Of a stretch of DNA of 64,000 nt, positions 10,750 through 50,944 are shown in pieces. Position 1 is the first letter of the stretch. Every line of letters begins with the position of its first letter. Both the position numbers and the translations under genes were made by a program. The notes under the pieces were generated by a model. That model had not been told where the DNA came from, ran no database searches, and was given only the letters and a program-made list of their open reading frames with translations. Source of the stretch: Proteromonas lacertae (taxonomy: Eukaryota); NCBI GenBank assembly GCA_002245135.1, contig NGBS01000583.1:62001-126000 (forward strand), in the 5' to 3' direction.

Positions 10750-12395
10750 ATGGAGAACACCTGTGCCAGTAATTCTACTAAAATCAATGAACTAAAACCT
10801 ATGTCAACAGAATACGCTGTATAATTATTCTTTTACAATCACTAGTCAAGATTATTATCACCTAAATATTATGGAGCTATAAGAACCTCACCAAAAAAGT
10901 GTCAGACACCAAAAGTTGGGTATGAAATTCTATCTATATCGTATATATAGCGAAAGTTGCGATAGATTTATACCGTGCAGATCTTCATCAGAATTAGAAT
11001 CAGCATTCACATTTGACGATTTTGCTCAATCATTTTCACAGTATTATTGTATTTTGTATAATCTCAAATAAGAAATGAATCTTCTACTAACACTACATCA
11101 AAGAATATAACAATTGACGTTGACTCTCCTTACTCATTAATGCTACAATCAGAATTATTAGGCATTGACTCACTTCCTTCAACTCCAATATCAAACACAA
11201 AGTCACACTCATCTGCTACAAATTCATCATATAATAGTCCTCAAACATCACCTAAAAAAATACTTCACTTTTCTCCCAAAACTCCAGAAAGAACAAAATC
11301 ATTTTTTTCTCCAATTAGTAACAATCATTTTATATCATCTCCGCTTGTACCAAATAGAAAAATTCCAACTATTCCATTCAAAATGTTAGATGCTCCTGGT
11401 TTAAAAGATGATTTTTACATCAATGTGTTAGATTGGTCAAAAAATAATATTATTAGTGTTGGACTAGAATCTACAGCATATTTATACAATGCAGTTAATA
11501 ATAATGTATAAATTACATATATATATCTTAAAATAGATAATAGAATTATCAGATTATGAAAATGATTATGTTTCATGTCTAAAATTCAACGGTGAAGGTA
11601 ATCTACTCACAATAGCCACTAATAATGGTAAAATACAAATATGGGATGTTGTTAATACTTCATTAATTAGAGAATATAAGAGTAATGGTTCAATAAATCA
11701 TCGAAGAGTAGGTACATGTAGTTGGTGTGGTGATTCTACGATAGCAACAGGTAGTAAAGATGGTATAATAACAATCAGAGATATACGATGTTCTACTGAT
11801 AATATACATTTATTATATGGACATAGTGATGAAGTGTGTGGTTTAAAATATAGTTATCCAACTCAAAATATCCAATTAGCATCAGGAGGTAATGATAATA
11901 CAGTGTGTATATGGGAACCTAACCATAGTTGTAGACCTATTCATATATTGAAGGATCATACTGCCAGCAATCAAAGCCTTAGACTGGTCACCGCATCAAA
12001 ATGGACTATTAGCTAGTGGAGGTGGTACTGCTGATAAAAAGATAAGATTTTGGAATACTTTTACTGGTAGTTGTTTGAATACAGTTGATAGTGGTAGTCA
12101 AGTATGTAATATATTATGGAGTCCTCATGTTAATGAGTTTATTACTAGTCATGGTTTTACTTATAATCAGTTGAATGTGTGGAAGTATCCCAGTTGTAGT
12201 ACAATTGGTACATTAACAGGGCATAAGTCAAGAGTGTTATTTTTGTCATTATCTCCAGATGGACAATCAGTTGTATCTGGTGCTGGAGATGAAACATTGA
12301 GATTTTGGACAGTATTTCCAGAGAATGTGTTAAAAAGCCAAAATAGACTAAAGAGTCAGAGGTTATTAATTGATAATTCATTGGATATTAGATAA
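10750..12395 (+). CDS. FZR1: APC/C activator Cdh1/Fizzy-related (WD40); +1 frameshift at 11964-11965 in this copy
   Basis: C-box DRFIPCR, Cdh1-type [28 protein letters not shown]40 repeats, [11 protein letters not shown]-terminal IR tail; 4 short introns. Confidence 0.9.
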
Positions 12396-12764
12396 TTATG
12401 TAAAATGTAGTTAAGTTATTTAATTAATTCTTCATATGTGTTTGTTGAATATTATTTTAAAATGTGTTAAAATAGAGATTGTATTGATAAATTTTTTGGG
12501 GGTTTATAACAAATAATATTCTACATATATGTACAGATGATTTTATCTTTTTTATAGTAATATAAATCAGAGATTATCTAATTTTATAATAAAAGGCTTA
12601 AATCGTCCATTTATTATTAAAAAGACGTTTTTATCTATTAAAAAATGACTAGTTCTCGCGATATATGTTTGTACATAATAAATAACCAAACATCAAAAAC
12701 TTATAATTATTATTATGAAAAATCACTACTCAAAAGAATCTTTTATTAGTAATTATTTGGAATA

Positions 12765-13109
12765 ATGTCTGAAACACGTAGTCCTAGTTTTGTAAGTGCC
12801 AATAGTTCTCAAAAACAGTTTGTAAGAAAAGTATTTCACAACCCTTGCCAGTATTGGTACTGTGGTTTATGTGCTTGTGTTACATCCATTTTTTTATTTT
12901 TTTATACCTTATTTGCATTAATATTCACTTCATTATGGTATTTCATCAAAGGTTTATGGAATTGCATAACTTGTAACTGTGATGAAAGTTTTTGTGGCGA
13001 TGAGTTTTTTGGTGAGTGCACAACATCTTGTGATGGTGGCTGTTCATATTTAGGTGAATGTTGTTGCGATTGTTTAGGTTGTGCAACATGCCATCCTAAC
13101 GATGATTGA
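12765..13109 (+). CDS. Small cysteine-rich membrane protein (114 aa), copy 1
   Basis: Intronless ORF with a central hydrophobic segment and Cys-rich acidic tail (GECCCDCLGC). Confidence 0.7.
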   Translation: MSETRSPSFVSANSSQKQFVRKVFHNPCQYWYCGLCACVTSIFLFFYTLFALIFTSLWYFIKGLWNCITCNCDESFCGDEFFGECTTSCDGGCSYLGECCCDCLGCATCHPNDD

Positions 13110-13707
13110 AGTAAATATAAAAAGTTATACATTGTAATGTTTTTATTAATTGTTAGAATGAAGAAACTATTTGTCATAAACACTAACACATATAACTGAA
13201 TGTATAAAAAAATAGGCTTGTTGTAGCTTTATTTTAGTTTTTTTATTTCTTAGTAATAAAAGTAAATGCATATATGTGTGATATACATATAATAAAGGCA
13301 TATATGTAAATAATAGTAAAATATCATTTAAAGCATTGATGTAATATTAAAATACTCCTATTGATGAATAATTATTATATTCATTGTTAATATATTAAAT
13401 TATATAGTATTTATTTCTTATGTTAAGTGTCGTACAAAAAAAATTAATGTGTACACTAACCTTTAATATTGTTCTTATGCAAAAAAAGATGTATATAACA
13501 ATGTTTGATGGTATGAAAATGAAAAGCAAAGTCAGTAACAAAAATGCAGTACGTCTTATTTAAAGCTTATATGAGATTAACAAACAACAAGCTGATGCTA
13601 ATTGTATTAATCCATATGTGAATAGTAGTTAGCATAATGAAATAATAAGAAAGATATAAAAGTAACGAAAATAAAATTCTTTAAAAGATTAGACTAATTA
13701 AAATACT

Positions 13708-16700
13708 ATGATATTGGTGTTTTTATTGTTGTCAGGAGGTATAATATTTTATTTTTAACATTTAGTTTTATGTAGTCCTTGTCTTAAGTTCAGCAATGAG
13801 ATCTATCTCATTTTAGGTAGTGAAGTTGAAGTTTGTTCTCCATTTAGAAATGGTCGATCATGCGCAGTTGATAGAAGTTTGCCAGAAGGTTTGACTCTTA
13901 AAGAAGACTGTAGAATTGTTGGATTTACCAAAATGGCCTGTAGAACAGAATATTTTACACTTAAATCATACAATAATGATAAAATTATGGAAAAGAAGTT
14001 ATTTTCATTAGGTGTTTATGAAAAACTCGAGAAATGTGGTTATTCTGATGGTTCAGGAGTATTTATGTTTCCAAAGGATATAACATCGTCATTATCACCT
14101 CCTAAATGCAATGTGGAAATAGAAAAATGTTATAGTTATGATAAATTACCCAAATTTGTAAAAGTGTATGAAGATGGTTCAATCCTTTTATCAAATCCAA
14201 TAAAATCAGAATTAGGTGTTAATGTGATTTGTTATAATAAAGTGAGTGAATATAAGATGAAGTTGAAAATAAACATTATTGAAGTATCTGAAAATGGTAA
14301 TGATAAAGTTCGCAATCTTCAAAGCAACATAATCCAAAATATTTGGGAATTTTCTAATAATAGACAACCAAATGATATATGGATGATTGGTTTCAGAGAT
14401 AAAAAGAATTGGATAGTAAGTAATTCGTTTCCTCCAAAATCAAAAACAACAAGATATTATCGAAACACATTTACCATTACTAATATAAAAGAAACTGGTC
14501 CTCCATTACTTAAAATAACCTTTAATGATGGAATTCTTATTTATGTAAATGGAAAAGAAATATATAGAAGAAATTTTTTTTCAGGTGGAATAGACACCAC
14601 AACTACATCAAGGAAAAAAGAAAAAAGAAATATGGAAATATCAATTCCTCTAACAGTAATTAAAGAGGGAATTAATTACATTGGAATAGAAGTTCATTCA
14701 TATTTATCCAATCCATTGAATCAAGTTGATTCTCTTTCTTGTACAATAACATTAAGTAATCCAATTACAACTACTCCAACTCAAATATCTACAATTGATA
14801 CAGTCACTCAATATTATCAATCTGCTTCTGGAAAAGAAGTAAAAGAAGTAAAAGATATGAATAACATTTTTTCAATTGGTAGTGGTTATATCGAATATTA
14901 TTTAACTTCATTAGTAGACTCCAATAAAGAATTTGATTGGTTTCCATTCAATATTACTTATTCATTTAATAATAATAAAGCCTTTTATTTCAATCAATTT
15001 AGTATAAGTGGTTGTTCTGATGATGAAGACTATCATCCTAAACATATTAGAATATATGGTTCAACAGATAGTGATGGTATAGAGTGGGAATTACTGTATG
15101 AAAATGAAAATTTAGGGTTGACTGGTAAAAAATGCACAACTATATTATCCAATTCATTACCATCTGATAAATCTTACGAAAGATATAAATTGGAAATAAT
15201 TTCAATTAATGATTTTCCTACTATCACTTCTGCCTATATTAAATTTAAATTATTTGTAGTAAATGTTGAATCATTACCAATGTGTAAAAGTGATTCTTTT
15301 GGATTTTCATCAGTATATGCTGGAGGAACATCTATAGTAGAATGTGGATCAGGATTTATGAAAAGAAAATGTTTATATGCTAGTGTTACTAACACAGCCA
15401 AATGGTCAGATGATATTGATAAGTCAAAATGCTATAATGAAAATGTTTATGTTTCAACCTATCCAAATATAACTAAAACCTATGAATTTGATAAAGAAAT
15501 ATCCTCAATCACACCAAAATCACAATATGTGAGTATTAGTGGAAAAATACTAAAGGTAAATAGTAATATAGAAACAGTTCAAAGATTTGAAGTGATATTG
15601 AGTGATTTAACAGAATATGATGTATATGTAAGTGCTGTAAGAGATGTTGGTAAATGTAGTTATGGAGTTGATAGTATTCGAATTTATCCAATTGAAATAG
15701 ATCTAGAATTGCTATGTTATCATAAACCATCTTATATATCAGTTTATAATCTTCCTACTGGTTTAAATGTAGATAAAAATGGTAGAATATATGGAATGAT
15801 AAGCGATCCAACTGAAAAAGAGGAATATACAACAGTAATTACATATATAATAGATAAAAAATATGAATTAGAGATAAAATGGAATAGAAAAAAAGTAGAA
15901 ATGAGTTGGGGATTAGAATTTGTAAATTTTGCAGAATCTGGCCAAGATGGAATGGATGATAATGGTTACAACTTTCATAACAGTGAATTAAAAGATATTT
16001 GGTCTAAATTTGAAAATGGAAAATATAAAATAGCAACAACAGAAGCATTATATACTACTAATGTTAAAATATCGGATTCAAAAGGTGAATGTCTTAAGTA
16101 TTTATGGAAGACTTGTCAAAATGGTATAGCCAGAATGAGAGGATATGTAAAAATTGATGAAGATGGAGAGTATACATTTTATGGAAAATCTGATAGACAA
16201 AAATTTGCCTTAAAGAATTACGAAGACGAATTATATAATACAAATGGTTTTTTTGAAGAAGGAAGCTATAAAGTTACATTAAAAAAAGGATATTATGCAA
16301 TTGGATATTTATCATGGTATGGTAGTGGATCTAGTGAATTTCAAGCATACCTTCAAAAAACAGGAGGTAATAAAGAATTATTGGATGATAGAATATTCAG
16401 GGGTGGGTTTGTTATTTCTCATTTATCATATAATGTTTTATTTGTTGAGTTAAAAAAGTATGATGATATATTTCTAAAACCAACTTTCAATGGAATTCCG
16501 TCAGAATGGGAAATAAGTCCAGAAATTAAAGGACTGTCAATCAAACCTGATGGAACAATAGAAGGATATACTTATGTCTATAGTAGTGACTATAAAATAG
16601 TGGTAGTAAAATCTGTTAGTAAAATAGATATATGTGAAATTTCTACAGAATTTCAACTTCATCTTTTTGATAAATACAGTATTAATCAAAATGGTTTAAA

Positions 16701-18240
16701 AGTTAAATATTATTATTTTGATGCAATTGATGTAGATAATACAATTAATATCTCTACACTTGATAATAAACATTTTAGATTAGAGAGATTTGAAGAAAAT
16801 ATATATCACGAAAAGAATGATAATTTATGGAATGATTTACCAGAAGAATTGAGTTATTCATTTATAGCTCATTACAGAGGATATTTTAATAATAAACTTT
16901 CAACTAAAAAAAATATTACAATCTCTCTAGAATGTCATGATTATTGTAGATTGAATATTGAAGATAAGTATATAGAGTGTAAAGGATATGGTTATCACAA
17001 AAAATCTGTTGAAATGAATCTAGATAATAGTTTATATGATTTAGAAATAATATATGCAAAAGGAAATGAAGATAAAACAAAATTACTAAAAATTTATTAT
17101 TCTATAGATGATTCTGAAGGAAAAGAAATTCCTGAATCATTATATTTGTTTAACGCAGAATATCCAGTGTTATATAATCCAATTAAGACTCATTACTATA
17201 AAGATGTATTAATCTTAATTCAATCTCCTATCAAATCTAAATCATTTAGTGAAAATATAGCCAATGTAAAATATTCAATTAGTCCTTCACTTCCTCCTGG
17301 AATGAAATTAAATGAAAATGATGGATCAATTGAAGGAATAAGTGAAATAATTGATGAAGATAGAAATTATACAATAAGAATTGATTTTAGGAATAACAAA
17401 CATTTTTATTCTTCATTTTCATTTTCAGTATTACCTAAAATTGAACCAATAATTGAATATCCAATTAATAATATATCCATAAAAGCAGGAGAGAATATTG
17501 AACTTACACCTTCTAACATGAAATGTGAATATATAAATGCTGCTGGTTTACCAGCTGGTATAAATATAGATAAAGATGGAAAAGTTTATGGTATTAGCAA
17601 ATATAGTTTTGATAAAGATGTGGATATGGATTGTTTTACATATAAAAAGAAAAGTGTATCTATTCACATAACAATAATATCTGATGAAACACTACCCCCT
17701 ACCACTATAATACCAACAACAGAAACACCTACGTCTGCTAAGCCAACTATAAAAATGGTTGAATTGTTCTTCTTTATTCACATCAATATTACTACATTAA
17801 CAGCAAATGAAATAAATATAATTGAAGAATCTTTAAAAGCAATATTAGAAAAACTAAACATTGATATGTCAATTACTAAAGTTAAGATTGAAATGATGAA
17901 AAGAAGGATGAGAATATTATCTGAGTATAAGTTAAGAGTCATTATAGAAACACCAGAAACAGAATCTACCAATGTAACATCAACTATAAAATATTTGGCT
18001 GAAAATGAAGGTGAATTACAGAATGAGATAAAGAATAGAGTAGATAAGGATTCTGACTTATATAATTCAAAAATAGAAATTGAGATAGAAAAGAATGATA
18101 CATCACCTCCACCTGAGAATGAAGAAGAAAGTAACAATAATGTAGTGATGATAATAATTATAGTTGTAGCTGTCGTTGTAGTATTAGTATGTTGTGCTAT
18201 TACATGTAGAATTATCAATAGGAAAAATGTGAAAAGATAA
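13708..18240 (+). CDS. Large type I cell-surface protein (about 1500 aa): He_PIG Ig-like repeats, galactose-binding-like and PA14-like domains, PT linker, SEA-like juxtamembrane domain; copy 1
   Basis: ATG 13708 plus a 27-nt intron gives signal peptide MILVFLLLSGVLCS. Repeats of LPxGLx(I/L)xxxGxIxG; PA14-like F(I)AHYRGY...ECHDYCRL; C-terminal TM (VVMIIIIVVAVVVVLVCC) and basic tail. Confidence 0.85.
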
Positions 18241-18393
18241 TATTGTTATAAATAGAAATTGATATCTTATTATTATTATTATTATTATGATAAATTGTAT
18301 TTAAGGTAATCATTCTTCATTAAATGGCTATATTATGGTACATTTATTTTTGAAGAAGAATATTAAAAAATCGAAAACCCTCTAGAAACCCCA

Positions 18394-18420: not shown

Positions 18421-18726
18421 ATGTAATCTACCCTTTTTTAATTTCCTTCAATTATAATGACTCTAATGAAATTAAGTACATTTATCAGCAAAACAAAATT
18501 TGTACTAAAATTTTAGTTTAACACAATATTCGTTTATAAAATATGACTTACACAATTTACTATGTAAAATTTTAAAGGCAAAACTTGTACTTTTATTTTT
18601 TTAATATTCTTCTTCAAAAATAAATGTACCATAATATAGCCATTTAATGAAGAATGATTACCTTAAATACAATTTATCATAATAATAATAATAATAATAA
18701 GATATCAATTTCTATTTATAACAATA

Positions 18727-21700
18727 TTATCTTTTCACATTTTTCCTATTGATAATTCTACATGTAATAGCACAACATACTAATACTACAACGACAGCTA
18801 CAACTATAATTATTATCATCACTACATTATTGTTACTTTCTTCTTCATTCTCAGGTGGAGGTGATGTATCATTCTTTTCTATCTCAATTTCTATTTTTGA
18901 ATTATATAAGTCAGAATCCTTATCTACTCTATTCTTTATCTCATTCTGTAATTCACCTTCATTTTCAGCCAAATATTTTATAGTTGATGTTACATTGGTA
19001 GATTCTGTTTCTGGTGTTTCTATAATGACTCTTAACTTATACTCAGATAATATTCTCATCCTTCTTTTCATCATTTCAATCTTAACTTTAGTAATTGACA
19101 TATCAATGTTTAGTTTTTCTAATATTGCTTTTAAAGATTCTTCAATTATATTTATTTCATTTGCTGTTAATGTAGTAATATTGATGTGAATAAAGAAGAA
19201 CAATTCAACCATTTTTATAGTTGGCTTAGCAGACGTAGGTGTTTCTGTTGTTGGTATTATAGTGGTAGGGGGTAGTGTTTCATCAGATATTATTGTTATG
19301 TGAATAGATACACTTTTCTTTTTATATGTAAAACAATCCATATCCACATCTTTATCAAAACTATATTTGCTAATACCATAAACTTTTCCATCTTTATCTA
19401 TATTTATACCAGCTGGTAAACCAGCAGCATTTATATATTCACATTTCATGTTAGAAGGTGTAAGTTCAATATTCTCTCCTGCTTTTATGGATATATTATT
19501 AATTGGATATTCAATTATTGGTTCAATTTTAGGTAATACTGAAAATGAAAATGAAGAATAAAAATGTTTGTTATTCCTAAAATCAATTCTTATTGTATAA
19601 TTTCTATCTTCATCAATTATTTCACTTATTCCTTCAATTGATCCATCATTTTCATTTAATTTCATTCCAGGAGGAAGTGAAGGACTAATTGAATATTTTA
19701 CATTGGCTATATTTTCACTAAATGATTTAGATTTGATAGGAGATTGAATTAAGATTAATACATCTTTATAGTAATGAGTCTTAATTGGATTATATAACAC
19801 TGGATATTCTGCGTTAAACAAATATAATGATTCAGGAATTTCTTTTCCTTCAGAATCATCTATAGAATAATAAATTTTTAGTAATTTTGTTTTATCTTCA
19901 TTTCCTTTTGCATATATTATTTCTAAATCATATAAACTATTATCTAGATTCATTTCAACAGATTTTTTGTGATAACCATATCCTTTACACTCTATATACT
20001 TATCTTCAATATTCAATCTACAATAATCATGACATTCTAGAGAGATTGTAATATTTTTTTTAGTTGAAAGTTTATTATTAAAATATCCTCTGTAATGAGC
20101 TATAAATGAATAACTCAATTCTTCTGGTAAATCATTCCATAAATTATCATTCTTTTCGTGATATATATTTTCTTCAAATCTCTCTAATCTAAAATGTTTA
20201 TTATCAAGTGTAGAGATATTAATTGTATTATCTACATCAATTGCATCAAAATAATAATATTTAACTTTTAAACCATTTTGATTAATACTGTATTTATCAA
20301 AAAGATGAAGTTGAAATTCTGTAGAAATTTCACATATATCTATTTTACTAACAGATTTTACTACCACTATTTTATAGTCACTACTATAGACATAAGTATA
20401 TCCTTCTATTGTTCCATCAGGTTTGATTGACAGTCCTTTAATTTCTGGACTTATTTCCCATTCTGACGGAATTCCATTGAAAGTTGGTTTTAGAAATATA
20501 TCATCATACTTTTTTAACTCAACAAATAAAACATTATATGATAAATGAGAAATAACAAACCCACCCCTGAATATTCTATCATCCAATAATTCTTTATTAC
20601 CTCCTGTTTTTTGAAGGTATGCTTGAAATTCACTAGATCCACTACCATACCATGATAAATATCCAATTGCATAATATCCTTTTTTTAATGTAACTTTATA
20701 GCTTCCTTCTTCAAAAAAACCATTTGTATTATATAATTCGTCTTCGTAATTCTTTAAGGCAAATTTTTGTCTATCAGATTTTCCATAAAATGTATACTCT
20801 CCATCTTCATCAATTTTTACATATCCTCTCATTCTGGCTATACCATTTTGACAAGTCTTCCATAAATACTTAAGACATTCACCTTTTGAATCCGATATTT
20901 TAACATTAGTAGTATATAATGCTTCTGTTGTTGCTATTTTATATTTTCCATTTTCAAATTTAGACCAAATATCTTTTAATTCACTGTTATGAAAGTTGTA
21001 ACCATTATCATCCATTCCATCTTGGCCAGATTCTGCAAAATTTACAAATTCTAATCCCCAACTCATTTCTACTTTTTTTCTATTCCATTTTATCTCTAAT
21101 TCATATTTTTTATCTATTATATATGTAATTACTGTTGTATATTCCTCTTTTTCAGTTGGATCGCTTATCATTCCATATATTCTACCATTTTTATCTACAT
21201 TTAAACCAGTAGGAAGATTATAAACTGATATATAAGATGGTTTATGATAACATAGCAATTCTAGATCTATTTCAATTGGATAAATTCGAATACTATCAAC
21301 TCCATAACTACATTTACCAACATCTCTTACAGCACTTACATATACATCATATTCTGTTAAATCACTCAATATCACTTCAAATCTTTGAACTGTTTCTATA
21401 TTACTATTTACCTTTAGTATTTTTCCACTAATACTCACATATTGTGATTTTGGTGTGATTGAGGATATTTCTTTATCAAATTCATAGGTTTTAGTTATAT
21501 TTGGATAGGTTGAAACATAAACATTTTCATTATAGCATTTTGACTTATCAATATCATCTGACCATTTGGCTGTGTTAGTAACACTAGCATATAAACATTT
21601 TCTTTTCATAAATCCTGATCCACATTCTACTATAGATGTTCCTCCAGCATATACTGATGAAAATCCAAAAGAATCACTTTTACACATTGGTAATGATTCA

Positions 21701-23259
21701 ACATTTACTACAAATAATTTAAATTTAATATAGGCAGAAGTGATAGTAGGAAAATCATTAATTGAAATTATTTCCAATTTATATCTTTCGTAAGATTTAT
21801 CAGATGGTAATGAATTGGATAATATAGTTGTGCATTTTTTACCAGTCAACCCTAAATTTTCATTTTCATACAGTAATTCCCACTCTATACCATCACTATC
21901 TGTTGAACCATATATTCTAATATGTTTAGGATGATAGTCTTCATCATCAGAACAACCACTTATACTAAATTGATTGAAATAAAAGGCTTTATTATTATTA
22001 AATGAATAAGTAATATTGAATGGAAACCAATCAAATTCTTTATTGGAGTCTACTAATGAAGTTAAATAATATTCGATATAACCACTACCAATTGAAAAAA
22101 TGTTATTCATATCTTTTACTTCTTTTACTTCTTTTCCAGAAGCAGATTGATAATATTGAGTGACTGTATCAATTGTAGATATTTGAGTTGGAGTAGTTGT
22201 AATTGGATTACTTAATGTTATTGTACAAGAAAGAGAATCAACTTGATTCAATGGATTGGATAAATATGAATGAACTTCTATTCCAATGTAATTAATTCCC
22301 TCTTTAATTACTGTTAGAGGAATTGATATTTCCATATTTCTTTTTTCTTTTTTCCTTGATGTAGTTGTGGTGTCTATTCCACCTGAAAAAAAATTTCTTC
22401 TATATATTTCTTTTCCATTTACATAAATAAGAATTCCATCATTAAAGGTTATTTTAAGTAATGGAGGACCAGTTTCTTTTATATTAGTAATGGTAAATGT
22501 GTTTCGATAATATCTTGTTGTTTTTGATTTTGGAGGAAACGAATTACTTACTATCCAATTCTTTTTATCTCTGAAACCAATCATCCATATATCATTTGGT
22601 TGTCTATTATTAGAAAATTCCCAAATATTTTGGATTATGTTGCTTTGAAGATTGCGAACTTTATCATTACCATTTTCAGATACTTCAATAATGTTTATTT
22701 TCAACTTCATCTTATATTCACTCACTTTATTATAACAAATCACATTAACACCTAATTCTGATTTTATTGGATTTGATAAAAGGATTGAACCATCTTCATA
22801 CACTTTTACAAATTTGGGTAATTTATCATAACTATAACATTTTTCTATTTCCACATTGCATTTAGGAGGTGATAATGACGATGTTATATCCTTTGGAAAC
22901 ATAAATACTCCTGAACCATCAGAATAACCACATTTCTCGAGTTTTTCATAAACACCTAATGAAAATAACTTCTTTTCCATAATTTTATCATTATTGTATG
23001 ATTTAAGTGTAAAATATTCTGTTCTACAGGCCATTTTGGTAAATCCAACAATTCTACAGTCTTCTTTAAGAGTCAAACCTTCTGGCAAACTTCTATCAAC
23101 TGCGCATGATCGACCATTTCTAAATGGAGAACAAACTTCAACTTCACTACCTAAAATGAGATAGATCTCATTGCTGAACTTAAGACAAGGACTACATAAA
23201 ACTAAATGTTAAAAATAAAATATTATACCTCCTGACAACAATAAAAACACCAATATCAT
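18727..23259 (-). CDS. Large type I cell-surface Ig/PA14 protein, copy 2
   Basis: Same 1453-aa ORF as copy 1, with the mirrored signal-peptide exon. Confidence 0.85.
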
Positions 23260-23857
23260 AGTATTTTAATTAGTCTAATCTTTTAAAGAATTTTATTTTC
23301 GTTACTTTTATATCTTTCTTATTATTTCATTATGCTAACTACTATTCACATATGGATTAATACAATTAGCATCAGCTTGTTGTTTGTTAATCTCATATAA
23401 GCTTTAAATAAGACGTACTGCATTTTTGTTACTGACTTTGCTTTTCATTTTCATACCATCAAACATTGTTATATACATCTTTTTTTTCATAAGAACAATA
23501 TTAAAGGTTAGTGTACACATTAATTTTTTTTGTACGACACTTAACATAAGAAATAAATACTATATAATTTAATATATTAACAATGAATATAATAATTATT
23601 CATCAATAGGAGTATTTTAATATTACATCAATGCTTTAAATGATATTTTACTATTATTTACATATATGCCTTTATTATATGTATATCACACATATATGCA
23701 TTTACTTTTATTACTAAGAAATAAAAAAACTAAAATAAAGCTACAACAAGCCTATTTTTTTATACATTCAGTTATATGTGTTAGTGTTTATGACAAATAG
23801 TTTCTTCATTCTAACAATTAATAAAAACATTACAATGTATAACTTTTTATATTTACT

Positions 23858-24202
23858 TCAATCATCGTTAGGATGGCATGTTGCACAACCTAAACAATCG
23901 CAACAACATTCACCTAAATATGAACAGCCACCATCACAAGATGTTGTGCACTCACCAAAAAACTCATCGCCACAAAAACTTTCATCACAGTTACAAGTTA
24001 TGCAATTCCATAAACCTTTGATGAAATACCATAATGAAGTGAATATTAATGCAAATAAGGTATAAAAAAATAAAAAAATGGATGTAACACAAGCACATAA
24101 ACCACAGTACCAATACTGGCAAGGGTTGTGAAATACTTTTCTTACAAACTGTTTTTGAGAACTATTGGCACTTACAAAACTAGGACTACGTGTTTCAGAC
24201 AT
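23858..24202 (-). CDS. Small cysteine-rich membrane protein, copy 2
   Basis: Identical to 12765-13109. Confidence 0.7.
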   Translation of the reverse strand: MSETRSPSFVSANSSQKQFVRKVFHNPCQYWYCGLCACVTSIFLFFYTLFALIFTSLWYFIKGLWNCITCNCDESFCGDEFFGECTTSCDGGCSYLGECCCDCLGCATCHPNDD

Positions 24203-24571
24203 TATTCCAAATAATTACTAATAAAAGATTCTTTTGAGTAGTGATTTTTCATAATAATAATTATAAGTTTTTGATGTTTGGTTATTTATTATGTACAAAC
24301 ATATATCGCGAGAACTAGTCATTTTTTAATAGATAAAAACGTCTTTTTAATAATAAATGGACGATTTAAGCCTTTTATTATAAAATTAGATAATCTCTGA
24401 TTTATATTACTATAAAAAAGATAAAATCATCTGTACATATATGTAGAATATTATTTGTTATAAACCCCCAAAAAATTTATCAATACAATCTCTATTTTAA
24501 CACATTTTAAAATAATATTCAACAAACACATATGAAGAATTAATTAAATAACTTAACTACATTTTACATAA

Positions 24572-25250
24572 TTATCTAATATCCAATGAATTATCAATTA
24601 ATAACCTCTGACTCTTTAGTCTATTTTGGCTTTTTAACACATTCTCTGGAAATACTGTCCAAAATCTCAATGTTTCATCTCCAGCACCAGATACAACTGA
24701 TTGTCCATCTGGAGATAATGACAAAAATAACACTCTTGACTTATGCCCTGTTAATGTACCAATTGTACTACAACTGGGATACTTCCACACATTCAACTGA
24801 TTATAAGTAAAACCATGACTAGTAATAAACTCATTAACATGAGGACTCCATAATATATTACATACTTGACTACCACTATCAACTGTATTCAAACAACTAC
24901 CAGTAAAAGTATTCCAAAATCTTATCTTTTTATCAGCAGTACCACCTCCACTAGCTAATAGTCCATTTTGATGCGGTGACCAGTCTAAGGCTTTGATTGC
25001 TGCAGTATGATCCTTCAATATATGAATAGGTCTACAACTATGGTTAGGTTCCCATATACACACTGTATTATCATTACCTCCTGATGCTAATTGGATATTT
25101 TGAGTTGGATAACTATATTTTAAACCACACACTTCATCACTATGTCCATATAATAAATGTATATTATCAGTAGAACATCGTATATCTCTGATTGTTATTA
25201 TACCATCTTTACTACCTGTTGCTATCGTAGAATCACTACACCAACTACAT
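24572..25250 (-). pseudogene. FZR1: 5'-truncated Cdh1/Fzr1 duplicate (C-terminal WD40 repeats plus IR tail, frame intact)
   Basis: Begins at the duplication breakpoint with an in-frame TAA immediately upstream and no ATG. Lacks the C-box and first WD repeats. Confidence 0.85.
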
Positions 25251-43290: not shown

Positions 43291-46200
43291 ATGTCTAGTG
43301 TAGTGTTTATAAGATATCATTTTATTTTGATTTTTCTTGATAGTATCAGATAAAATTTAATTGAATAGAAAAAAAAGATGAGAAGTATAAGACTTCTCTT
43401 ATGTTGTATAGGCAACTGTTCCTATTTTTTACCTGATTTATGGTTGATGTTGAAGAAGACTTTATTGTTCAAGAAAAGACATTATTTCAGAACATTCTGT
43501 GAAATCGTATAAAAGTCTAGTTAATATTGTTAGTTCATTCCAGTTATCATTGCACTGATATTTATTCCTGTGTATTTCTTATTTGAAACTGATTATTACT
43601 ACGAGGAAAAGTATTTTTAAAATTCAATTTATATTTTGTATAGTTTTGCTTTGAGTGCTAGAGAAGTTTATCCGCTTGGTGATATGTTTGCTCATGTCAA
43701 GTCTATTGGATATCACGTTGCTGTAATTGGTAAAGAAAATGATGTTAATAACTTCATTTCAAAAATGGATGATTTTTACCCTGGTTTTAAGTTTAATAAG
43801 AATATACTGACTTATGCTGAGAAGCAGAGTATAGGTAATGATATTGATTTATTGGAAATACCTAAATTATCTGACATAGCTAAAGTGTTTAAAGATGAAG
43901 GTTCGTTCAATAGTTATGTGAAGAGCAGAGATTATGTTAATCAAGATGCAATAGTTTTTGCAATTACAATAAACAAATATCTTTTTTTGTATAGTTTAAA
44001 TAATTAAATATATCAGTTTTCTTAATAAATATTCATATTTGAAAGTGGAAATTATGATTATTTGTTAAGATATAACCATTCAGATCCAACACCAAATTTC
44101 AAGAGTGAAACTTCGTATAATTACTATTTACCCTTTTTTTTATTATAGTATTAATGATCCTTGGACAAATATAGTGAAATGGGATGACATTGATGATTTT
44201 ATATCAATGGACTATAAACCAAAATCTCCAAATCCAAGTGAAGAAGATACATTAAAAGCAAAAGCTACATTTGATAAAACTCAAGGTTTTTTAACATTAC
44301 AAAACTCAATAGATAAAATGATTATTAATAAAGAAGCTGACAATAAATTAAGTGATGAAGAGTTGTATGAAGTATTTAAAACAAAAACTTATCTTGTGAA
44401 AAGAGATATTGTATATATATCATGACCTTTTTTTAATATTTGTAGAACGAAAAAATTCAAAATGCAATTCAAACATTGAATAATACTCACAGTGATGTTT
44501 TAATGCCTGAAATAAGAAAACTAACAAAAGAGTATAATCACATTCCTCAAGCAACAAGAATTGCTCTTTTCCCTCAATTTGCTCAAGAAAGAAGCATGTT
44601 CTTTTATAGTATGTCACTTGCAGTTGGTACATTATTCGTTTTGATTTACATGTATACAAGTTCATGGATGGTATATGACGTTGTTTATGAAAAAGAAAAG
44701 AAATTAAGAGAAGGTATGTGTATGATGGGTTTAAATGAATCTGCATTGAATTGTTCTTGGTTGATAATCTATTTTTTAGAAACTACAATATCAGCAATAT
44801 TAATTACAATTATTATGTATATTAAAACTTAATAATACAATTTAAATAGGGCATTCTTATTAGATCATTCCAATGTATTCTTCGTGTTTTTGATTTTCTT
44901 TTTGTATGGAATTACACTTATTTCATTTGTGTATTTAATCTCAACATTCTTCAGTCGAGCTAAAACAGCAGTTATAGCAAGTGTTATTTTGTTATTCATC
45001 TTCTTCTTTATAGCTATTTTCTTCAGTATGATATTAATTTCTTATCTTATATTAATAGAAACAACTGATATGTCTTATTCAACTAAAATGGGTTTATCTA
45101 TCTTCTTTCCTGTTGCATTTGATTTAGGTTTAGGTGTATTCTGCAATCTAGAATCTAATGGTATTGGTTTAACTGTATCAACAATCAATAAATCATGGAA
45201 AGATCAAACTTATTCAGGTGCTATTTTGATGTTATTTGTAGATACGGTTGTGTATTTGATACTAGCTTGGTATTTTGACAGAGTAGTTCCAAGGGAATAT
45301 GGCACTCATTACAAATGGTATTTCTTATTTACTCCCTCTTATTGGTTTGGAAGTGATCATGATAACATTAGAGTAACTGATAGTTCAAGTGATGAAGATT
45401 TAAAGAATCCAGATAATCTAGATGCTAATGGAAATAAAAAAGCTCATTTTGAAGATATAGAACCAAGATTGAAAGAAATGTATAATCAAGGTAAATGTGT
45501 AGATGTTAAAAGTCTATTCAAGACTTTCAATACACCAGATGGCAAGAAAGTGGCAGTTAATAATTTGAATATGCAAATGTATGAAGGTCAAATCTTTGTT
45601 TTATTGGGTCATAATGGTGCTGGTAAATCAACAACAATATCAATGTTAAGTGGTTTATTTAGTCCAACTAGTGGTAGTGCTACAATGTATGGATATGATT
45701 CAAATAGTCAAATGAGTGAAATAAGGAAGATAATGGGAATTTGTCCACAGCATGATGTACTGTTTGATGAATTAACAGTAAGACAACATTTAGTATTATT
45801 TGCTCATTTGAAGAGAATTCCTGAAGATAAGATTGATGTTTCAGTAGAGAAAATAATCAATGAAATAGGTTTGAGAGAAAAAGTAGATTATCCTTCTTGT
45901 AATTTAAGTGGTGGACAAAAGAGAAAATTGAGTGTAGGAATTGCTTTGATTGGAAATTCAAAAATCGTCTTTTTAGATGAACCAACTAGTGGTATGGATC
46001 CTTATTCTAGAAGAAGTACTTGGTCAATACTACAAAGTAATAAAGAAGGAAGAATCATCATATTAACCACTCATTTCATGGATGAAGCTGATCTGTTAGC
46101 TGATAGAATTGGTATTATGCATGATGGTCAATTAATATGTTGTGGAAGACCTCATTATTTAAAGCAAGAATATGGAATAGGATATACATTGACTGTAGTG

Positions 46201-49200
46201 AAGAAATCTCTTGATGATGGTCCAAAAATAGAAGTGTTAGTAGGTGAAATGGTACCTGAAGCAGAATTATTAACTGATGTAGGTAAAGAAATCTCATTTA
46301 GATTGCCATTTGCCTCTGGACAACAATTCCCTGCATTATTAAAAGAAATAGATAACAACAAAGATAAATATGGTATTGATAGTTATGGAATGTCAGCTAC
46401 AACTATGGAAGAAGTGTTTTTAAATTCGGCAAAGATTGCTGATAGAGAGAATATGTTAGAAGTTCAAAACTCTAGAAAATCTGGAATATCTAAAATTCAA
46501 TTAAACAAAGAATATAAGCAATTCAATCGAGCAGAAGCATCAAAGAAAAATATGTTCTTCATTCATTATGCAGCTTGTTTGAAGAAGAGAATGTTGTATG
46601 TAAAAAGAGATTTGAAAGGAATAATATGTCAAATCTTAATCCCCATTGTAGTAATGCTATTAGGTTTTCTGTTTATGTCTATGGATTTTTCTTCACAACC
46701 TCCAATGTATGAAATATATATATATATATAATTAATTTAGATTTGATATTGATACTCGTTACTATAACAAGGAAGTAGCTAATTCAACTGAAAGATACAA
46801 GACTGTCTTACCATATGATAATGTAAAGAGTGGTTCAGCTGTTGAATTTCTTAAATACTTAGAGAAGGATGATGTTGTTCCAAATCCATTTGATGGTTCA
46901 AAATATTATAGTGATGATGGTTGTCTTCTTGAAGAAAGTTTAAAATCAATGACTGAAGATAAGAGAAAAGAAAAATGTCAATCAGTATAAATTATGTTTC
47001 ATATATAAAAAATAGATTAATCAAAACAAAGAATTTGCTGTTCCAATATATGGATTATATCAATACTTAAGGGAAACAGCAAATGATGAAGAAGCAACAA
47101 AATATATTGCATTTGCTCAAGTTCCAGATCTTACAACAAACAGATATGTCTCTTATATATTTGTAAATTCTTCAAGTTCTCATGCTAGTGCAATTGGAAT
47201 GAATCAATTGAATCAAGCATTGTTAAGATATTATTCAAGTATAGCAGATGCAAAATTATTAACATCTGGATCAGTAATGCCATTTACATTTAGTGATGAA
47301 AATGATGCTGAGAATATTAAAGGATTTGCTATTCCAATTGTTAATGTTTTAGCTCTTGCATTTGTTGCTTCCTATTATGTTTCATTTATAGTTAAAGAAA
47401 AAGAAGTAGGTGTGAAACATCAGCAGTTGATTAGTGGTGTTAGTTTACCTGCTTATTGGATTGCTACATTCACATGGGATATGTTGACATACTTACTTCC
47501 GTATATTACTATATTATAATAATATTATATATGAATAGATGTATATTTGGAATAGTATTTATGTATATCTTTGATCTTAAATCTTTTCAAAATCATATTG
47601 GAGTTGTAATTGTTTTATTCATTCTATATGGTTTAGCTGTTGCTCAATCAACCTATTTCTTATCCTATATATTCAAAGTTCACTCATCAGCTCAAAATAC
47701 AGTGTTGTTTCTTAACATTATCATTGTTTTATTCATCGATTTGAAATTTATGTTAGGTCAAATTAAATCAACTTGCAGATTAGGTGAAGTTTTAGAGTAT
47801 ATATATATATTCAATAATTATTACTATTTAGTTGGTTCTTCTTGATATTCTTCCCTGGTTATACATTTGGTATTGGAATGTACAGATTAGGTATTTGGGA
47901 TTCTTTAAGTATGATGGATGGTATGTGTGATATGTTACATAATATTCCAGTTGATATTCAACCATATCCTGAAACTGGAGGTGAATTTGCGTTTGACAAA
48001 ATAGGAAAGAGTATATTGTTTTTAGTTCTTCAATTTGTAATATATGGATTTTTGGCAATTATTACTGATTATATTCTGTCATATCCTAAATTAAAACAGA
48101 AATTTTTCGCAGATAAAGATTTACCAAAAAGATGTTTTACACCTGATGAAGATGTGAAGAATGAAGCTGACAGAATAAAAGAAGGAATGATTCATGAAAG
48201 TGGAAAGAAAGAAACTATTCAAGTTAAAGGTTTGAGAAAAGTCTGGAATGGTAAAAAGATAGCTGTTGAAGATTTGAATTTTGGTTTGATACCTGGAACA
48301 TGTTTTGGATTTTTAGGAATAAATGGAGCAGGTAAAACCACCACATTAGAAATGTTGAGTGGAGATATAATTCCAACAAAAGGAACAGCAACAATAAGTG
48401 ATTTTGATATTCTAACTGATCAAATAGAAGTGAGAAGATTGTTAGGATATTGTCCACAATTTGATGCTTTATTAGATTTACTAACAGTAAAAGAACATTT
48501 ATATTTATATGCTAAAATCAAAGGTGTTCCTGATGATATAATTGATGATGTAATAAATGAAAAGATAGAACAAATGGATTTAGGTAAATTTGTGAATAAA
48601 ACAGCTGGTTCATTAAGTGGAGGAAATAAACGAAAGTTAAGTGTAGCAATTGCATTAATAGGAAATCCTCCATTAGTATTCTTAGATGAACCATCAACAG
48701 GAATGGATCCAGCAGCAAGAAGGCATATGTGGAATATAATAGCTGATATAACAATCAAGAGATGTGATACAACAATAATCTTAACAACTCATTCAATGGA
48801 AGAAGCTGAAGCATTATGCACATTGGTTGGAATAATGGTAGGTGGAAGATTGAGATGTTTAGGATCTTTACAACATTTGAAGAATAGATTTGGCCAAGGA
48901 TTTATGTTAGAAATCAAATTAAAGGAGAATAAAGAAGAAGAGGTTAAAGAAAAGGTAAAACAAATATCCTCTTTTGAAGGTGAATTATTATATGAGGAAG
49001 ATATAGAAGATGTTTGTAAAGAATTGGGAAGAATTGATCGATTTGATTTAATCAATGAAATAGACAGTGGTTGGTCAATTTATAGTGAGATTAACAAACA
49101 TAACCATGTAAGTAAGTCTTTCTTTGTTGATTGGTGGATAATGGAAGATAGAGTAAAGAATTTAACAGATACATTAAAGCAGATGTTTAATGATATTGAA

Positions 49201-49497
49201 TTGTTAGAAAGACATGATACTTATTTAAGATTTAGAATCGATACTGAGAACTTAAAACTTGGTGAATTATTTGATTTAGTAGAAGGAAAGAAAGAAGAAT
49301 TAGCAATTAAAGAATATAGTTTTGCTCAAACTTCATTAGAACAAATCTTCAATTCATTTGCATCTCAGCAAGAAGAAGAGAAAGGAGAGATAAGAGGATT
49401 AAAGAAACAAGGATCAACATCAATTAGAAGATTAACAACAGGATTAAAAAAGAAATCTAGAAAATCAATTTTAACCTTTGAAGTTGAACATATTTAG
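43291..49497 (+). CDS. ABCA-family full-length ABC transporter (start ATG 43291, or alternatively 43378)
   Basis: LWLMLKKTLLFKKRH N-terminus, EKEKKLREGM, two NBDs (GHNGAGKST/LSGGQKRKL/LDEPTSGMDP and GINGAGKTT/LSGGNKRKL), TSLEQIF; many short introns. Confidence 0.95.
43977..44036 (+). other. U12-type (minor spliceosome) AT-AT intron, 60 nt, containing a possible internal 28-nt GT-AG intron (43989-44016)
   Basis: 5' site ATATCTTT, branch-like TTTCTTAAT near the 3' end, terminus CAT. Removal restores the frame AITINK-FESGNYDYLLRYN; the GT-AG intron alone leads to a stop. Confidence 0.75.
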
Positions 49498-49750
49498 ATT
49501 GGTTATTTTTATATAAAATAGTTGTTTAATAAATATTTTGTTTTGGTGTTATAAACTATAATTAAAGCCATATAGCATTATTTTGTAAGTATTGTTTTTA
49601 TCTCTATTATCATTTATATTTTCATCATCATTTTCATCATTTACTACTCCTCTTAATATATATATATCCATTTGATTTGTGTGTTTTTTCTTTAAAATAA
49701 CAACAACAATTATAGAAATAAACTAATATAATATAAAGAATAATTAGAAT

Positions 49751-50944
49751 TTAATCTAACATACTTTCAACATCAATATCACCAAACTCATCTTCATTAT
49801 TTGAATGAAGTGATCTATTACTAGCACGGTTTGGATCTTTTACAGAAGCAAGACTAGGAGCAGCATCAGGAGCTGGCGAGGAAGCTGGTTGACGACCTGG
49901 ACCAGGTGGTGGTGGTCTTCTTGGCATAGCTGATCCATCATCACCTCCTCCTCTTCCATTATTTGGATTGATTTGTGGAGGTGGTGCTCTTCCTCCTTGT
50001 GCAAACGTAGTTTGACCGTTATTAACTTGATTTCTACGCTCTAATTCTGCATATTGAGCAGCGAATACATCTGAATTTTCACCTAAATCTTTACATAAAG
50101 CTACCAAGTATCTTAAACATTCAATATTTTCTGGATATTGTTTATGAATATCTTTATACATCTGTAATGCTTTCTTTAAGTTACCTAAACGTCTATAACA
50201 ACTAGTAACCATCAATTTCCATTTCACTTCATCTGGTTGAACTTCAGTAGCTCTTTCAAAGAAGGAAATTGCTTCTTCATACATTTCAGATCTGACAAAC
50301 CATAATCCAAGCCAAGATATAACATCTAAATTAACTGGATAGAATTTATAACTTTCTTTATGATAATGTAATGCTTGAGTATCATCATCTTCTTGACTAA
50401 ATAATTGACCTAATCTTGCAGTAATACCTGGATCAGTTGGAACTTTAGCTAATAACAAATTATAATATTTTATAGCTTCTTTTGGTCGATGTAATATTTC
50501 ATAAATTGTACCTATTTGATAGAATACTTCTGGATTACCTGGAGTTACTTGCAATAACTTCTCAAATGCTTGTAATGCTTCTTCCTGTGGTCCTACACGT
50601 TTTGCTACCAATCCTAAATTATAGATTGCTTCACTACAATCAGCTTCAACACCAATAGCTTCTAAATACATCTCTTTGGATTTATCATATTCTTCTTTAA
50701 TATAATGGCAATTACCTTTGTTTACTAAAGCTCTAGCATTATATCTATCTTTCTTTACAGCTTGAGTAGCATATTCATCAGCTTGTTTGTAATCTTGTTG
50801 TAAGAAATACATGAATGATAAGTTATTAGAGACTTGTGATCCTAATTGTTGATCTCTCTTTTCTGGTCCTCTTAATACTTTGGTAGCTTCATCAATCTTC
50901 TTTTGATGCATCTATTTTAATAATAATAATATTATTATTTATTA

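What the first reader, a model, noticed from the sequence alone, without database searches (positions are those of the whole stretch)
43977..44036. AT-AT minor-spliceosome intron with a GT-AG intron apparently nested inside it (U2-in-U12 twintron)
Seen: the ABCA frame is only restored by removing 43977-44036, ATATCTTTTTTT[GTATAGTTTAAATAATTAAATATATCAG]TTTTCTTAATAAATATTCAT, giving AITINK|FESGNYDYLLRYN. Known: U12 introns have the 5' site RTATCCTT and a TTCCTTRAY branch site close to the 3' end, and AT-AT is a recognised rare terminus. Here these are ATATCTTT and TTTCTTAAT. Seen: the bracketed 28 nt look like this genome's ordinary introns (GTAT...YAG), and excising them leaves a 32-nt U12 intron, the modal intron size in this window. 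Inference: two-step splicing, major spliceosome first and then minor, in a genome with very short introns.
Basis: partly seen in the sequence, partly recalled or inferred. Interest (0 to 1): 0.9.

Follow-up and report, generated by a model that had tools for sequence, protein, structure and literature searches.

The report
Conserved minor intron with inner decoy
This 60-base piece of a lipid-transporter gene in a Blastocystis-like protist has the signals and the exact position of a rare "minor-spliceosome" intron found in the relative's gene, and the ordinary-looking intron inside it is more likely an unproductive competitor than a required first step, though no RNA data could test this.

Summary
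Coordinates are right. Removing 43977-44036 is the best of 2,163 in-frame deletions against an ABCA profile. Its U12-type 5' motif occurs once in 54.6 kb of gene sense strand. A Blastocystis-like ortholog (L025) has a textbook 40-nt AT-AC minor intron at the same codon and phase, with no GT or AG inside. So the U12 AT-AT call holds. The inner 28-nt GT-AG pair exists and is unlikely by chance (0.1-0.7%). The two-step route is disfavoured: the 32-nt remnant would have its branch A at +21, while 326 of 339 Blastocystis ST1 AT-type minor introns read are all at least 36 nt, branch A at about +30 or later. 'Only restored by' is wrong: a 57-nt GT-AG intron also keeps the frame, but fits worse. Best reading (0.6): one-step minor splicing; inner splicing alone would frameshift to a premature stop. 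Two-step splicing 0.27. Untested in RNA. The scan's notes hold nothing on this DNA, only a prospero twintron in another genome.

The parts
43977..44036 (+). U12-type (minor) intron, AT-AT ends, 60 nt, phase 2, in the first extracellular domain of an ABCA gene
   Evidence: best of 2,163 deletions; same alignment column and phase as the AT-AC intron L025:3031-3070
43977..43985 (+). U12-type 5' splice site (ATATCTTT variant of ATATCCTT)
   Evidence: only sense-strand hit in 54,575 nt; 3 of 339 ST1 AT-type rows start ATATCT
44018..44026 (+). U12-type branch site TTTCTTAAT; branch A inferred at 44025 (+49 of the 60-mer, +21 of the 32-nt remnant)
   Evidence: same motif in ST1 rows OAO16203_4 and OAO16963_1
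44034..44036 (+). 3' end CAT, 10 nt after the branch hexamer
   Evidence: ST1 spacers are 4-8 nt (read by eye), so this is slightly long
43989..44016 (+). inner GT-AG pair, 28 nt, out of frame if removed alone (premature stop near 44067)
   Evidence: donor at 96th and CAG acceptor at 9th percentile of 56 window introns; stop
43989..44045 (+). rival in-frame GT-AG intron, 57 nt, ending AAG
   Evidence: 29.9 vs 33.4 bits; acceptor below all 56 curated introns, and it must skip the CAG at 28 nt
43378..49497 (+). host gene: intact full-size ABCA transporter, about 1,900 aa, 11 introns in my model, start codon uncertain
   Evidence: no internal stop; 36.8% identity end to end to P0043; first intron corrected to 43507-43533

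Best explanation
The 60 nt carry U12-type signals at a position and phase shared with an AT-AC minor intron of a Blastocystis-like ortholog, and they are likely removed in one step by the minor spliceosome, while the inner 28-nt GT-AG pair is likely a cryptic competitor whose use alone would shift the frame to a premature stop. Shown: sequence signals, frame arithmetic, protein-profile fit, shared intron position. Inferred: U11/U12 bind the 5' end and the branch site. Those footprints abut the inner donor and the inner CAG, so the two spliceosomes would exclude each other. A transcript that loses only the inner 28 nt would be left with a 32-nt remnant probably too short for minor splicing, and would be a dead end (likely nonsense-mediated decay). 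In this lineage the ancestral minor intron (40 nt in L025) probably drifted to AT-rich sequence (ATATCTTT, CAT end) and grew to 60 nt.
For: Top score of 2,163 in-frame deletions, blind to termini (profile from 111 of 120 ABCA homologs). Unique U12 5' motif. L025 minor intron in the same alignment column, phase 2; 4 of the window's first 7 introns match L025 exactly in column and phase, and 2 more within one column. L025's intron has no GT or AG inside and its branch A is at +33. PMC5608401 S11 Data, 326 of 339 ATATCC/ATATCT rows read: none under 36 nt; branch A at about +30 or later (by eye); 6 rows of 55 nt or more, including a 70-nt one with no internal AG (OAO12275_1), so long minor introns can be spliced in one step. 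One equally good out-of-frame GT-AG look-alike lies inside a long open frame of this window (33549, minus strand), so such pairs can apparently go unused. Competition and cryptic U2 sites at minor introns are described in PMC8329584 (passages).
Against: The inner pair is unlikely by chance (0.10-0.67%) and fills the space between the two U12 signals almost exactly. 0 of 47 curated window introns of 29 nt or more skip an earlier YAG, so a major spliceosome that engaged this donor would probably cut at the CAG; an efficient dead end should be selected against. The size floor comes from Blastocystis ST1, not from this organism, whose major introns reach down to 26 nt. The 10-nt branch-to-end spacer is outside the ST1 range of 4-8. 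Minor snRNAs could not be sought beyond the window (none in it; no genome held).
Confidence: 0.6

Rival explanations
1. Two-step, cross-spliceosome nesting: the major spliceosome removes the inner 28 nt, then the minor spliceosome removes the 32-nt AT-AT remnant. The inner intron would be a U2 intron gained inside an old U12 intron.
For: Inner pair at 0.10-0.67% by chance. Donor at the 96th percentile, length within the window's 26-41 nt bulk, first-YAG rule 47 of 47. The intron is 20 nt longer than its ortholog. The gene is intact, so if the inner pair is spliced often, the remnant must be spliceable.
Against: The remnant (32 nt, branch A at +21) is below all 326 ST1 minor introns read (minimum 36 nt, branch A at about +30 or later). 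The ortholog's 40 nt plus 28 would give 68, not 60. Neither U12 signal is interrupted, so the first step is not needed. The CAG acceptor is rare here (1 of 56). No inner pair in L025.
Confidence: 0.27
2. Shifted twintron or U12-to-U2 conversion: the major spliceosome removes 43989-44045 (57 nt, GT-AG, in frame) as the main or a backup route, and the U12 signals are relics or alternatives.
For: Canonical ends, frame kept, only 3.5 bits below the best; chosen by my GT-AG-only gene parser. The U12 5' site and AT-AT end are both rare variants, as expected during decay. Shifted twintrons are described in PMC3564746 (first third read).
Against: The AAG acceptor scores below all 56 curated introns and needs the CAG at 28 nt skipped (0 of 47 do this). 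It puts four large hydrophobic residues in a loop where 0 of 98 homologs have three or more. The conserved intron position is the U12 one, and both U12 motifs persist at about 25% protein identity.
Confidence: 0.07
3. Same minor intron, different 3' end: 54 nt (ends AAT, 4-nt spacer) or 69 nt (AT-AG at 44045).
For: Both are in frame. A 4-nt spacer lies in the ST1 range. AT-AG ends are common among the ST1 rows read, and an AAT end occurs once.
Against: 27.3 and 23.9 bits vs 33.4. The 54-nt product has three large hydrophobic loop residues, and the 69-nt product shortens the loop by three residues.
Confidence: 0.04
4. Only the ordinary 28-nt intron is real, and an assembly indel or pseudogenisation explains the frame.
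For: T runs flank the inner pair. The window holds a 6.4-kb perfect palindrome that may be an assembly artefact.
Against: TAA at 44023 and 44026 in the downstream frame means an indel in the T runs cannot rescue the frame. A later indel would add about 10 residues not seen in the closest homolog. The orthologous U12 intron is at the same site.
Confidence: 0.02

Closest known systems
AT-AN minor introns of Blastocystis ST1 (Gentekaki 2017, PMC5608401: passages and S11 Data rows; Larue and Roy 2023, PMC10639083: passages)
   Same: AT start, pyrimidine-rich branch site close to the 3' end, short-intron genome. AT-AT ends occur there (6 of 326 rows read). The orthologous AT-AC intron is at the same position in a Blastocystis-like locus.
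   Different: ATATCT start is rare in ST1 (3 of 339). This one is 60 nt vs mostly 37-41, with a 10-nt spacer vs 4-8. The host keeps IFT88, which Blastocystis largely lost with its flagellar genes (PMC10690189 passages).
U2-in-U12 twintrons: Drosophila prospero, SRSF10, HNRNPLL, ZNF207, C1orf112 (PMC8329584 passages; PMC3564746 part 1 of 3)
   Same: A GT-AG pair lies inside a U12 intron with AT-type ends; the two spliceosomes would compete.
   Different: Those have both forms seen in transcripts, and conservation across species. Here use of the inner pair is unobserved, it is out of frame, it is absent from the one ortholog seen, and the whole unit is 60 nt.
Fungal stwintrons, sensu stricto and sensu lato (PMC7138796 passages)
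   Different: Stwintrons are U2 inside U2 and, strictly defined, the inner intron splits a donor, branch or acceptor element. Here the outer intron is U12 and both of its signals are intact.

Membership tests
U12-type (minor) intron | extended 5' splice site RTATCCTT-like | tested here: met
   ATATCTTT at 43977, one C-to-T change; unique on sense strands; variant seen in 3 of 339 ST1 rows
U12-type (minor) intron | CCTTAAC-like branch site near the 3' end | tested here: met
   TTTCTTAAT at 44018-44026; same motif in ST1 rows
U12-type (minor) intron | branch-to-3'-end distance typical of the lineage | tested here: inconclusive
   10 nt after the hexamer vs 4-8 in ST1 rows (by eye) and 6 in L025
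U12-type (minor) intron | removal restores the conserved protein | tested here: met
   best of 2,163 deletions; ungapped against P0043 across the junction
U12-type (minor) intron | position shared with a minor intron in an ortholog | tested here: met
   L025:3031-3070, AT-AC, same column and phase
U12-type (minor) intron | junction seen in RNA; U11, U12, U4atac, U6atac in the genome | not testable with these tools
   no genome held; no RNA run listed; no Rfam hit in the window
U2/U12 twintron (competition type) | U2 splice-site pair inside or overlapping a U12 intron | tested here: met
   43989-44016 and 43989-44045
U2/U12 twintron (competition type) | both forms present in transcripts | not testable with these tools
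   no RNA data
U2/U12 twintron (competition type) | arrangement conserved across species | tested here: not met
   the single ortholog with the intron has no inner GT or AG; one distant comparison only
stwintron (sequential nested intron) | inner intron interrupts the donor, branch or acceptor element of the outer | tested here: not met
   both U12 motifs are intact in the unspliced sequence; the inner AG only abuts the branch motif
stwintron (sequential nested intron) | both introns are U2-type | tested here: not met
   outer intron is U12-type
stwintron (sequential nested intron) | outer remnant is a spliceable intron | tested here: inconclusive
   32 nt with branch A at +21, below all 326 ST1 minor introns read; the floor in this organism is unknown
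stwintron (sequential nested intron) | splicing intermediate observed | not testable with these tools
   no RNA data

The most novel reading that the evidence does not exclude
A cross-spliceosome sequential intron: a major intron gained inside an ancient minor intron is removed first, and the minor spliceosome then excises a 32-nt AT-AT remnant. That remnant would be shorter than any minor intron I read, with its branch point only 21 nt from the 5' end. I found no such case in four literature searches.
Probability: 0.27. Interest if true: 0.78.

Novelty: new member of a known kind. Interest (0 to 1): 0.42.

Why it matters
As it stands, it is a minor intron conserved between a flagellated Blastocystis relative and a Blastocystis-like genome at about 25% protein identity. 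That implies the minor spliceosome in this flagellated lineage, for which I found no paper ('Proteromonas' plus 'minor spliceosom', 0 papers in the library). It also shows that at least one Blastocystis-type minor intron predates the split, which bears on the suggestion in PMC10639083 that they may be recent gains. The 60-nt unit is a compact natural test of how close the minor spliceosome's 5' site and branch point can be, and of which spliceosome wins on overlapping signals. If the two-step route is real, it would be a hand-off between the two spliceosomes on one intron and would lower the size floor for minor introns.

Tried and rejected
RNA evidence: no RNA holder was listed for 43300-50200, which is no evidence either way; read laying therefore could not be used. 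No whole genome is held, so the snRNA search and the genome-wide survey were not possible. A metagenome scan with exon 43645-43974 found no relative. A search with the N-terminal 480 aa of P0043 returned only P0043, so ST1 ABCA accessions could not be matched to the ST1 intron list. The protein-representative search never ran. Length-restricted supplement searches are uninformative: the positive control failed. Rows 88-100 of the 336 ATATCC rows were not seen; GT-starting minor introns of ST1 were not examined. Hafez and Hausner 2015 was not held, so sequential U2-in-U12 cases reported there or in subscription journals may be missed. One search (size floor of minor introns) returned 0 papers. 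Of 80 related loci I screened L001-L031: 19 cover the loop; 18 are uninterrupted (some may be transcripts) and only L025 has the intron. Other U12 candidates: 72 sense-strand RTATCY sites were scanned; 8 had a branch-like hexamer downstream, and the 7 others showed no sign of an intron (judged by eye or by lying in open frames). No major-intron branch consensus was visible, so the inner intron's branch point could not be scored. The long eIF3c introns were dropped as evidence for plain long introns because they probably host snoRNAs. My ab initio parser overcalls introns (224). The 56-intron set was filtered for GTA starts, GC at most 22%, at most 70 nt and frame necessity, which inflates the donor percentile and may undercount CAG ends. 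One search had the first intron off by one base (corrected). The spliced aligner chose a 43-nt end for the L025 intron; I prefer the 40-nt AT-AC end for its 6-nt spacer. The 5' end and phase are the same either way.

Full report
Observation. The sequence and coordinates are as described. The 60 nt at 43977-44036 start ATATCTTT, hold TTTCTTAAT at 44018-44026 and end CAT. A GT...CAG pair of 28 nt lies at 43989-44016. In frame the segment has three TAA stops. The host gene is an intact ABCA transporter of about 1,900 aa that aligns end to end with P0043 from Blastocystis sp. Blastoise at 36.8%.

Organism. The window is about 26% GC. It encodes IFT88, whose best named hits are mostly stramenopiles, and its ABCA gene shares intron positions with a Blastocystis-like locus. 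Blastocystis has lost nearly all flagellar genes (PMC10690189, passages). So I infer a flagellated relative of Blastocystis; the species is not established. No genome was held and no RNA run was listed.

Which deletion is right. I built a profile from 111 of 120 ABCA homologs and scored all 2,163 single in-frame deletions, whatever their ends. The top score, 33.4 bits, is 43977-44036 and its two slide equivalents. It is weaker. Its AAG acceptor scores below all 56 curated window introns, and it must skip a CAG, which 0 of 47 curated introns do. It also puts four large hydrophobic residues in a loop where 0 of 98 homologs have three. The 28-nt intron plus an indel in the T runs fails because of the stops at 44023 and 44026.

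U12 identity. The motif RTATC[CT]TT[CT] occurs once in 54,575 nt of gene sense strand, at 43977. A metagenome scan returned locus L025: 40% GC, 29-31 nt GT-AG introns, 48% identical to P0043 and 25% to the window protein over the N-terminal 600 residues. It has a 40-nt intron starting ATATCCT, with branch motif TTCCTTCAT and an AC end, in the same alignment column and phase as the window's intron. Four of the window's first seven introns match L025 exactly and two more within one column. In 18 other loci covering the loop there is no intron. In the RNA-corrected intron list of Blastocystis ST1 (PMC5608401 S11 Data), 336 introns start ATATCC and 3 start ATATCT. Of the 326 rows I read, 6 end in AT, 4 of them CAT. 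AT-AT is the second commonest non-canonical minor terminus in animals (PMC10639083, passage). I put the U12 call at about 0.9. One misfit remains: a 10-nt spacer after the branch hexamer, against 4-8 in ST1.

The inner pair. The window's major introns are very uniform: 53 of 56 start GTAT, 54 of 56 end TAG, median 32.5 nt (the filter favours this pattern). The inner donor ranks at the 96th percentile, the CAG acceptor at the 9th, and the sum at the 23rd. A pair this good appears in the same shell in 0.10-0.67% of trials, so it is unusual. A scan of very many windows will, however, select some such cases. One out-of-frame look-alike of equal score sits in a long open frame in 27,915 nt of ORF cores. 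Removing the inner 28 nt alone shifts the frame to a stop near 44067. The orthologous intron has no GT or AG inside.

One step or two. The 32-nt remnant would have its branch A at +21. Among 326 of 339 ST1 AT-type minor introns (13 rows unseen) the shortest is 36 nt, most are 37-41 nt, and the branch A lies at about +30 or later (read by eye); in L025 it is at +33. ST1 major introns are mostly 30 nt, so minor introns have a higher floor, and matching the major-intron mode is no argument for the remnant. Long minor introns exist in ST1 (6 rows of 55 nt or more), including a 70-nt one with no internal AG. Both U12 signals here are intact without a first step. This favours one-step excision, with the inner pair as a cryptic or competing site whose use would be unproductive. 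The floor comes from another organism, and the low chance probability keeps the two-step route alive at about 0.27. That U11/U12 binding would mask the inner sites, and that the dead-end form would go to NMD, are inferences from general knowledge.

Relation to known systems. It is a member of the U12 AT-AN introns known from Blastocystis (PMC5608401; PMC10639083). Its geometry is that of U2-in-U12 twintrons such as prospero and SRSF10, which are described as competing alternatives (PMC8329584, passages; PMC3564746, part 1 of 3), but dual use is not shown here. I found no report of sequential U2-then-U12 excision (listings; passages of four of the papers); the library lacks most subscription journals and the 2015 twintron review.

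Verdict. A real, position-conserved minor intron with rare AT-AT ends: a new member of a known kind. The nested pair is real in sequence but of unproven use. Interest 0.42. The sequential cross-spliceosome reading has probability 0.27 and would deserve 0.78. Lariat sequencing would decide between the two.

Noticed in passing
window 6130-4680, minus strand (eIF3c gene): Several long interruptions (about 190-500 nt) in a genome of 32-nt introns probably host C/D-box snoRNAs: SNOR75/SNORD15-like at 4831-4735 (E 4e-4, below the gathering score), a weak SNORD36-like match at 5756-5685, a C/D-like unit at 6074-6015, and a repeated unit of about 60 nt near 5960-5800.
   Followed up: partly
window 11716-18370 and 18597-25250: Perfect inverted duplication (6,406 + 249 nt, 100% identical, 226-nt spacer) covering part of a Cdc20-like WD40 gene (name recalled) and a 1,490-aa PA14/Ig-domain gene; a recent duplication or an assembly palindrome artefact.
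   Followed up: no
window about 52400-49650, minus strand: IFT88 gene, showing that the organism keeps flagellar machinery; best database hits only 44-59% identical, so no close relative is in the protein collection.
   Followed up: partly
window 3094-1925, minus strand: NADH:flavin oxidoreductase (Oxidored_FMN) gene with short introns; possibly of bacterial origin, not tested.
   Followed up: no
L025:2570-4140: Blastocystis-like ABCA locus with 29-31 nt GT-AG introns; six intron positions are shared exactly or nearly with the window gene.
   Followed up: yes
PMC5608401 S11 Data, row OAO17064_4: A 63-nt ST1 minor intron holds an inner GT...CAG of 27 nt whose removal would leave 36 nt, the ST1 minimum; likely chance in GC-rich DNA, but testable in ST1 RNA-seq (read by eye).
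   Followed up: no
window 34251-34195, 34562-34515, 50979-50912, minus strand: The longer major introns (48-68 nt) have grown by TA-repeat expansion right after the donor, one way an intron here can reach 60 nt without nesting.
   Followed up: partly
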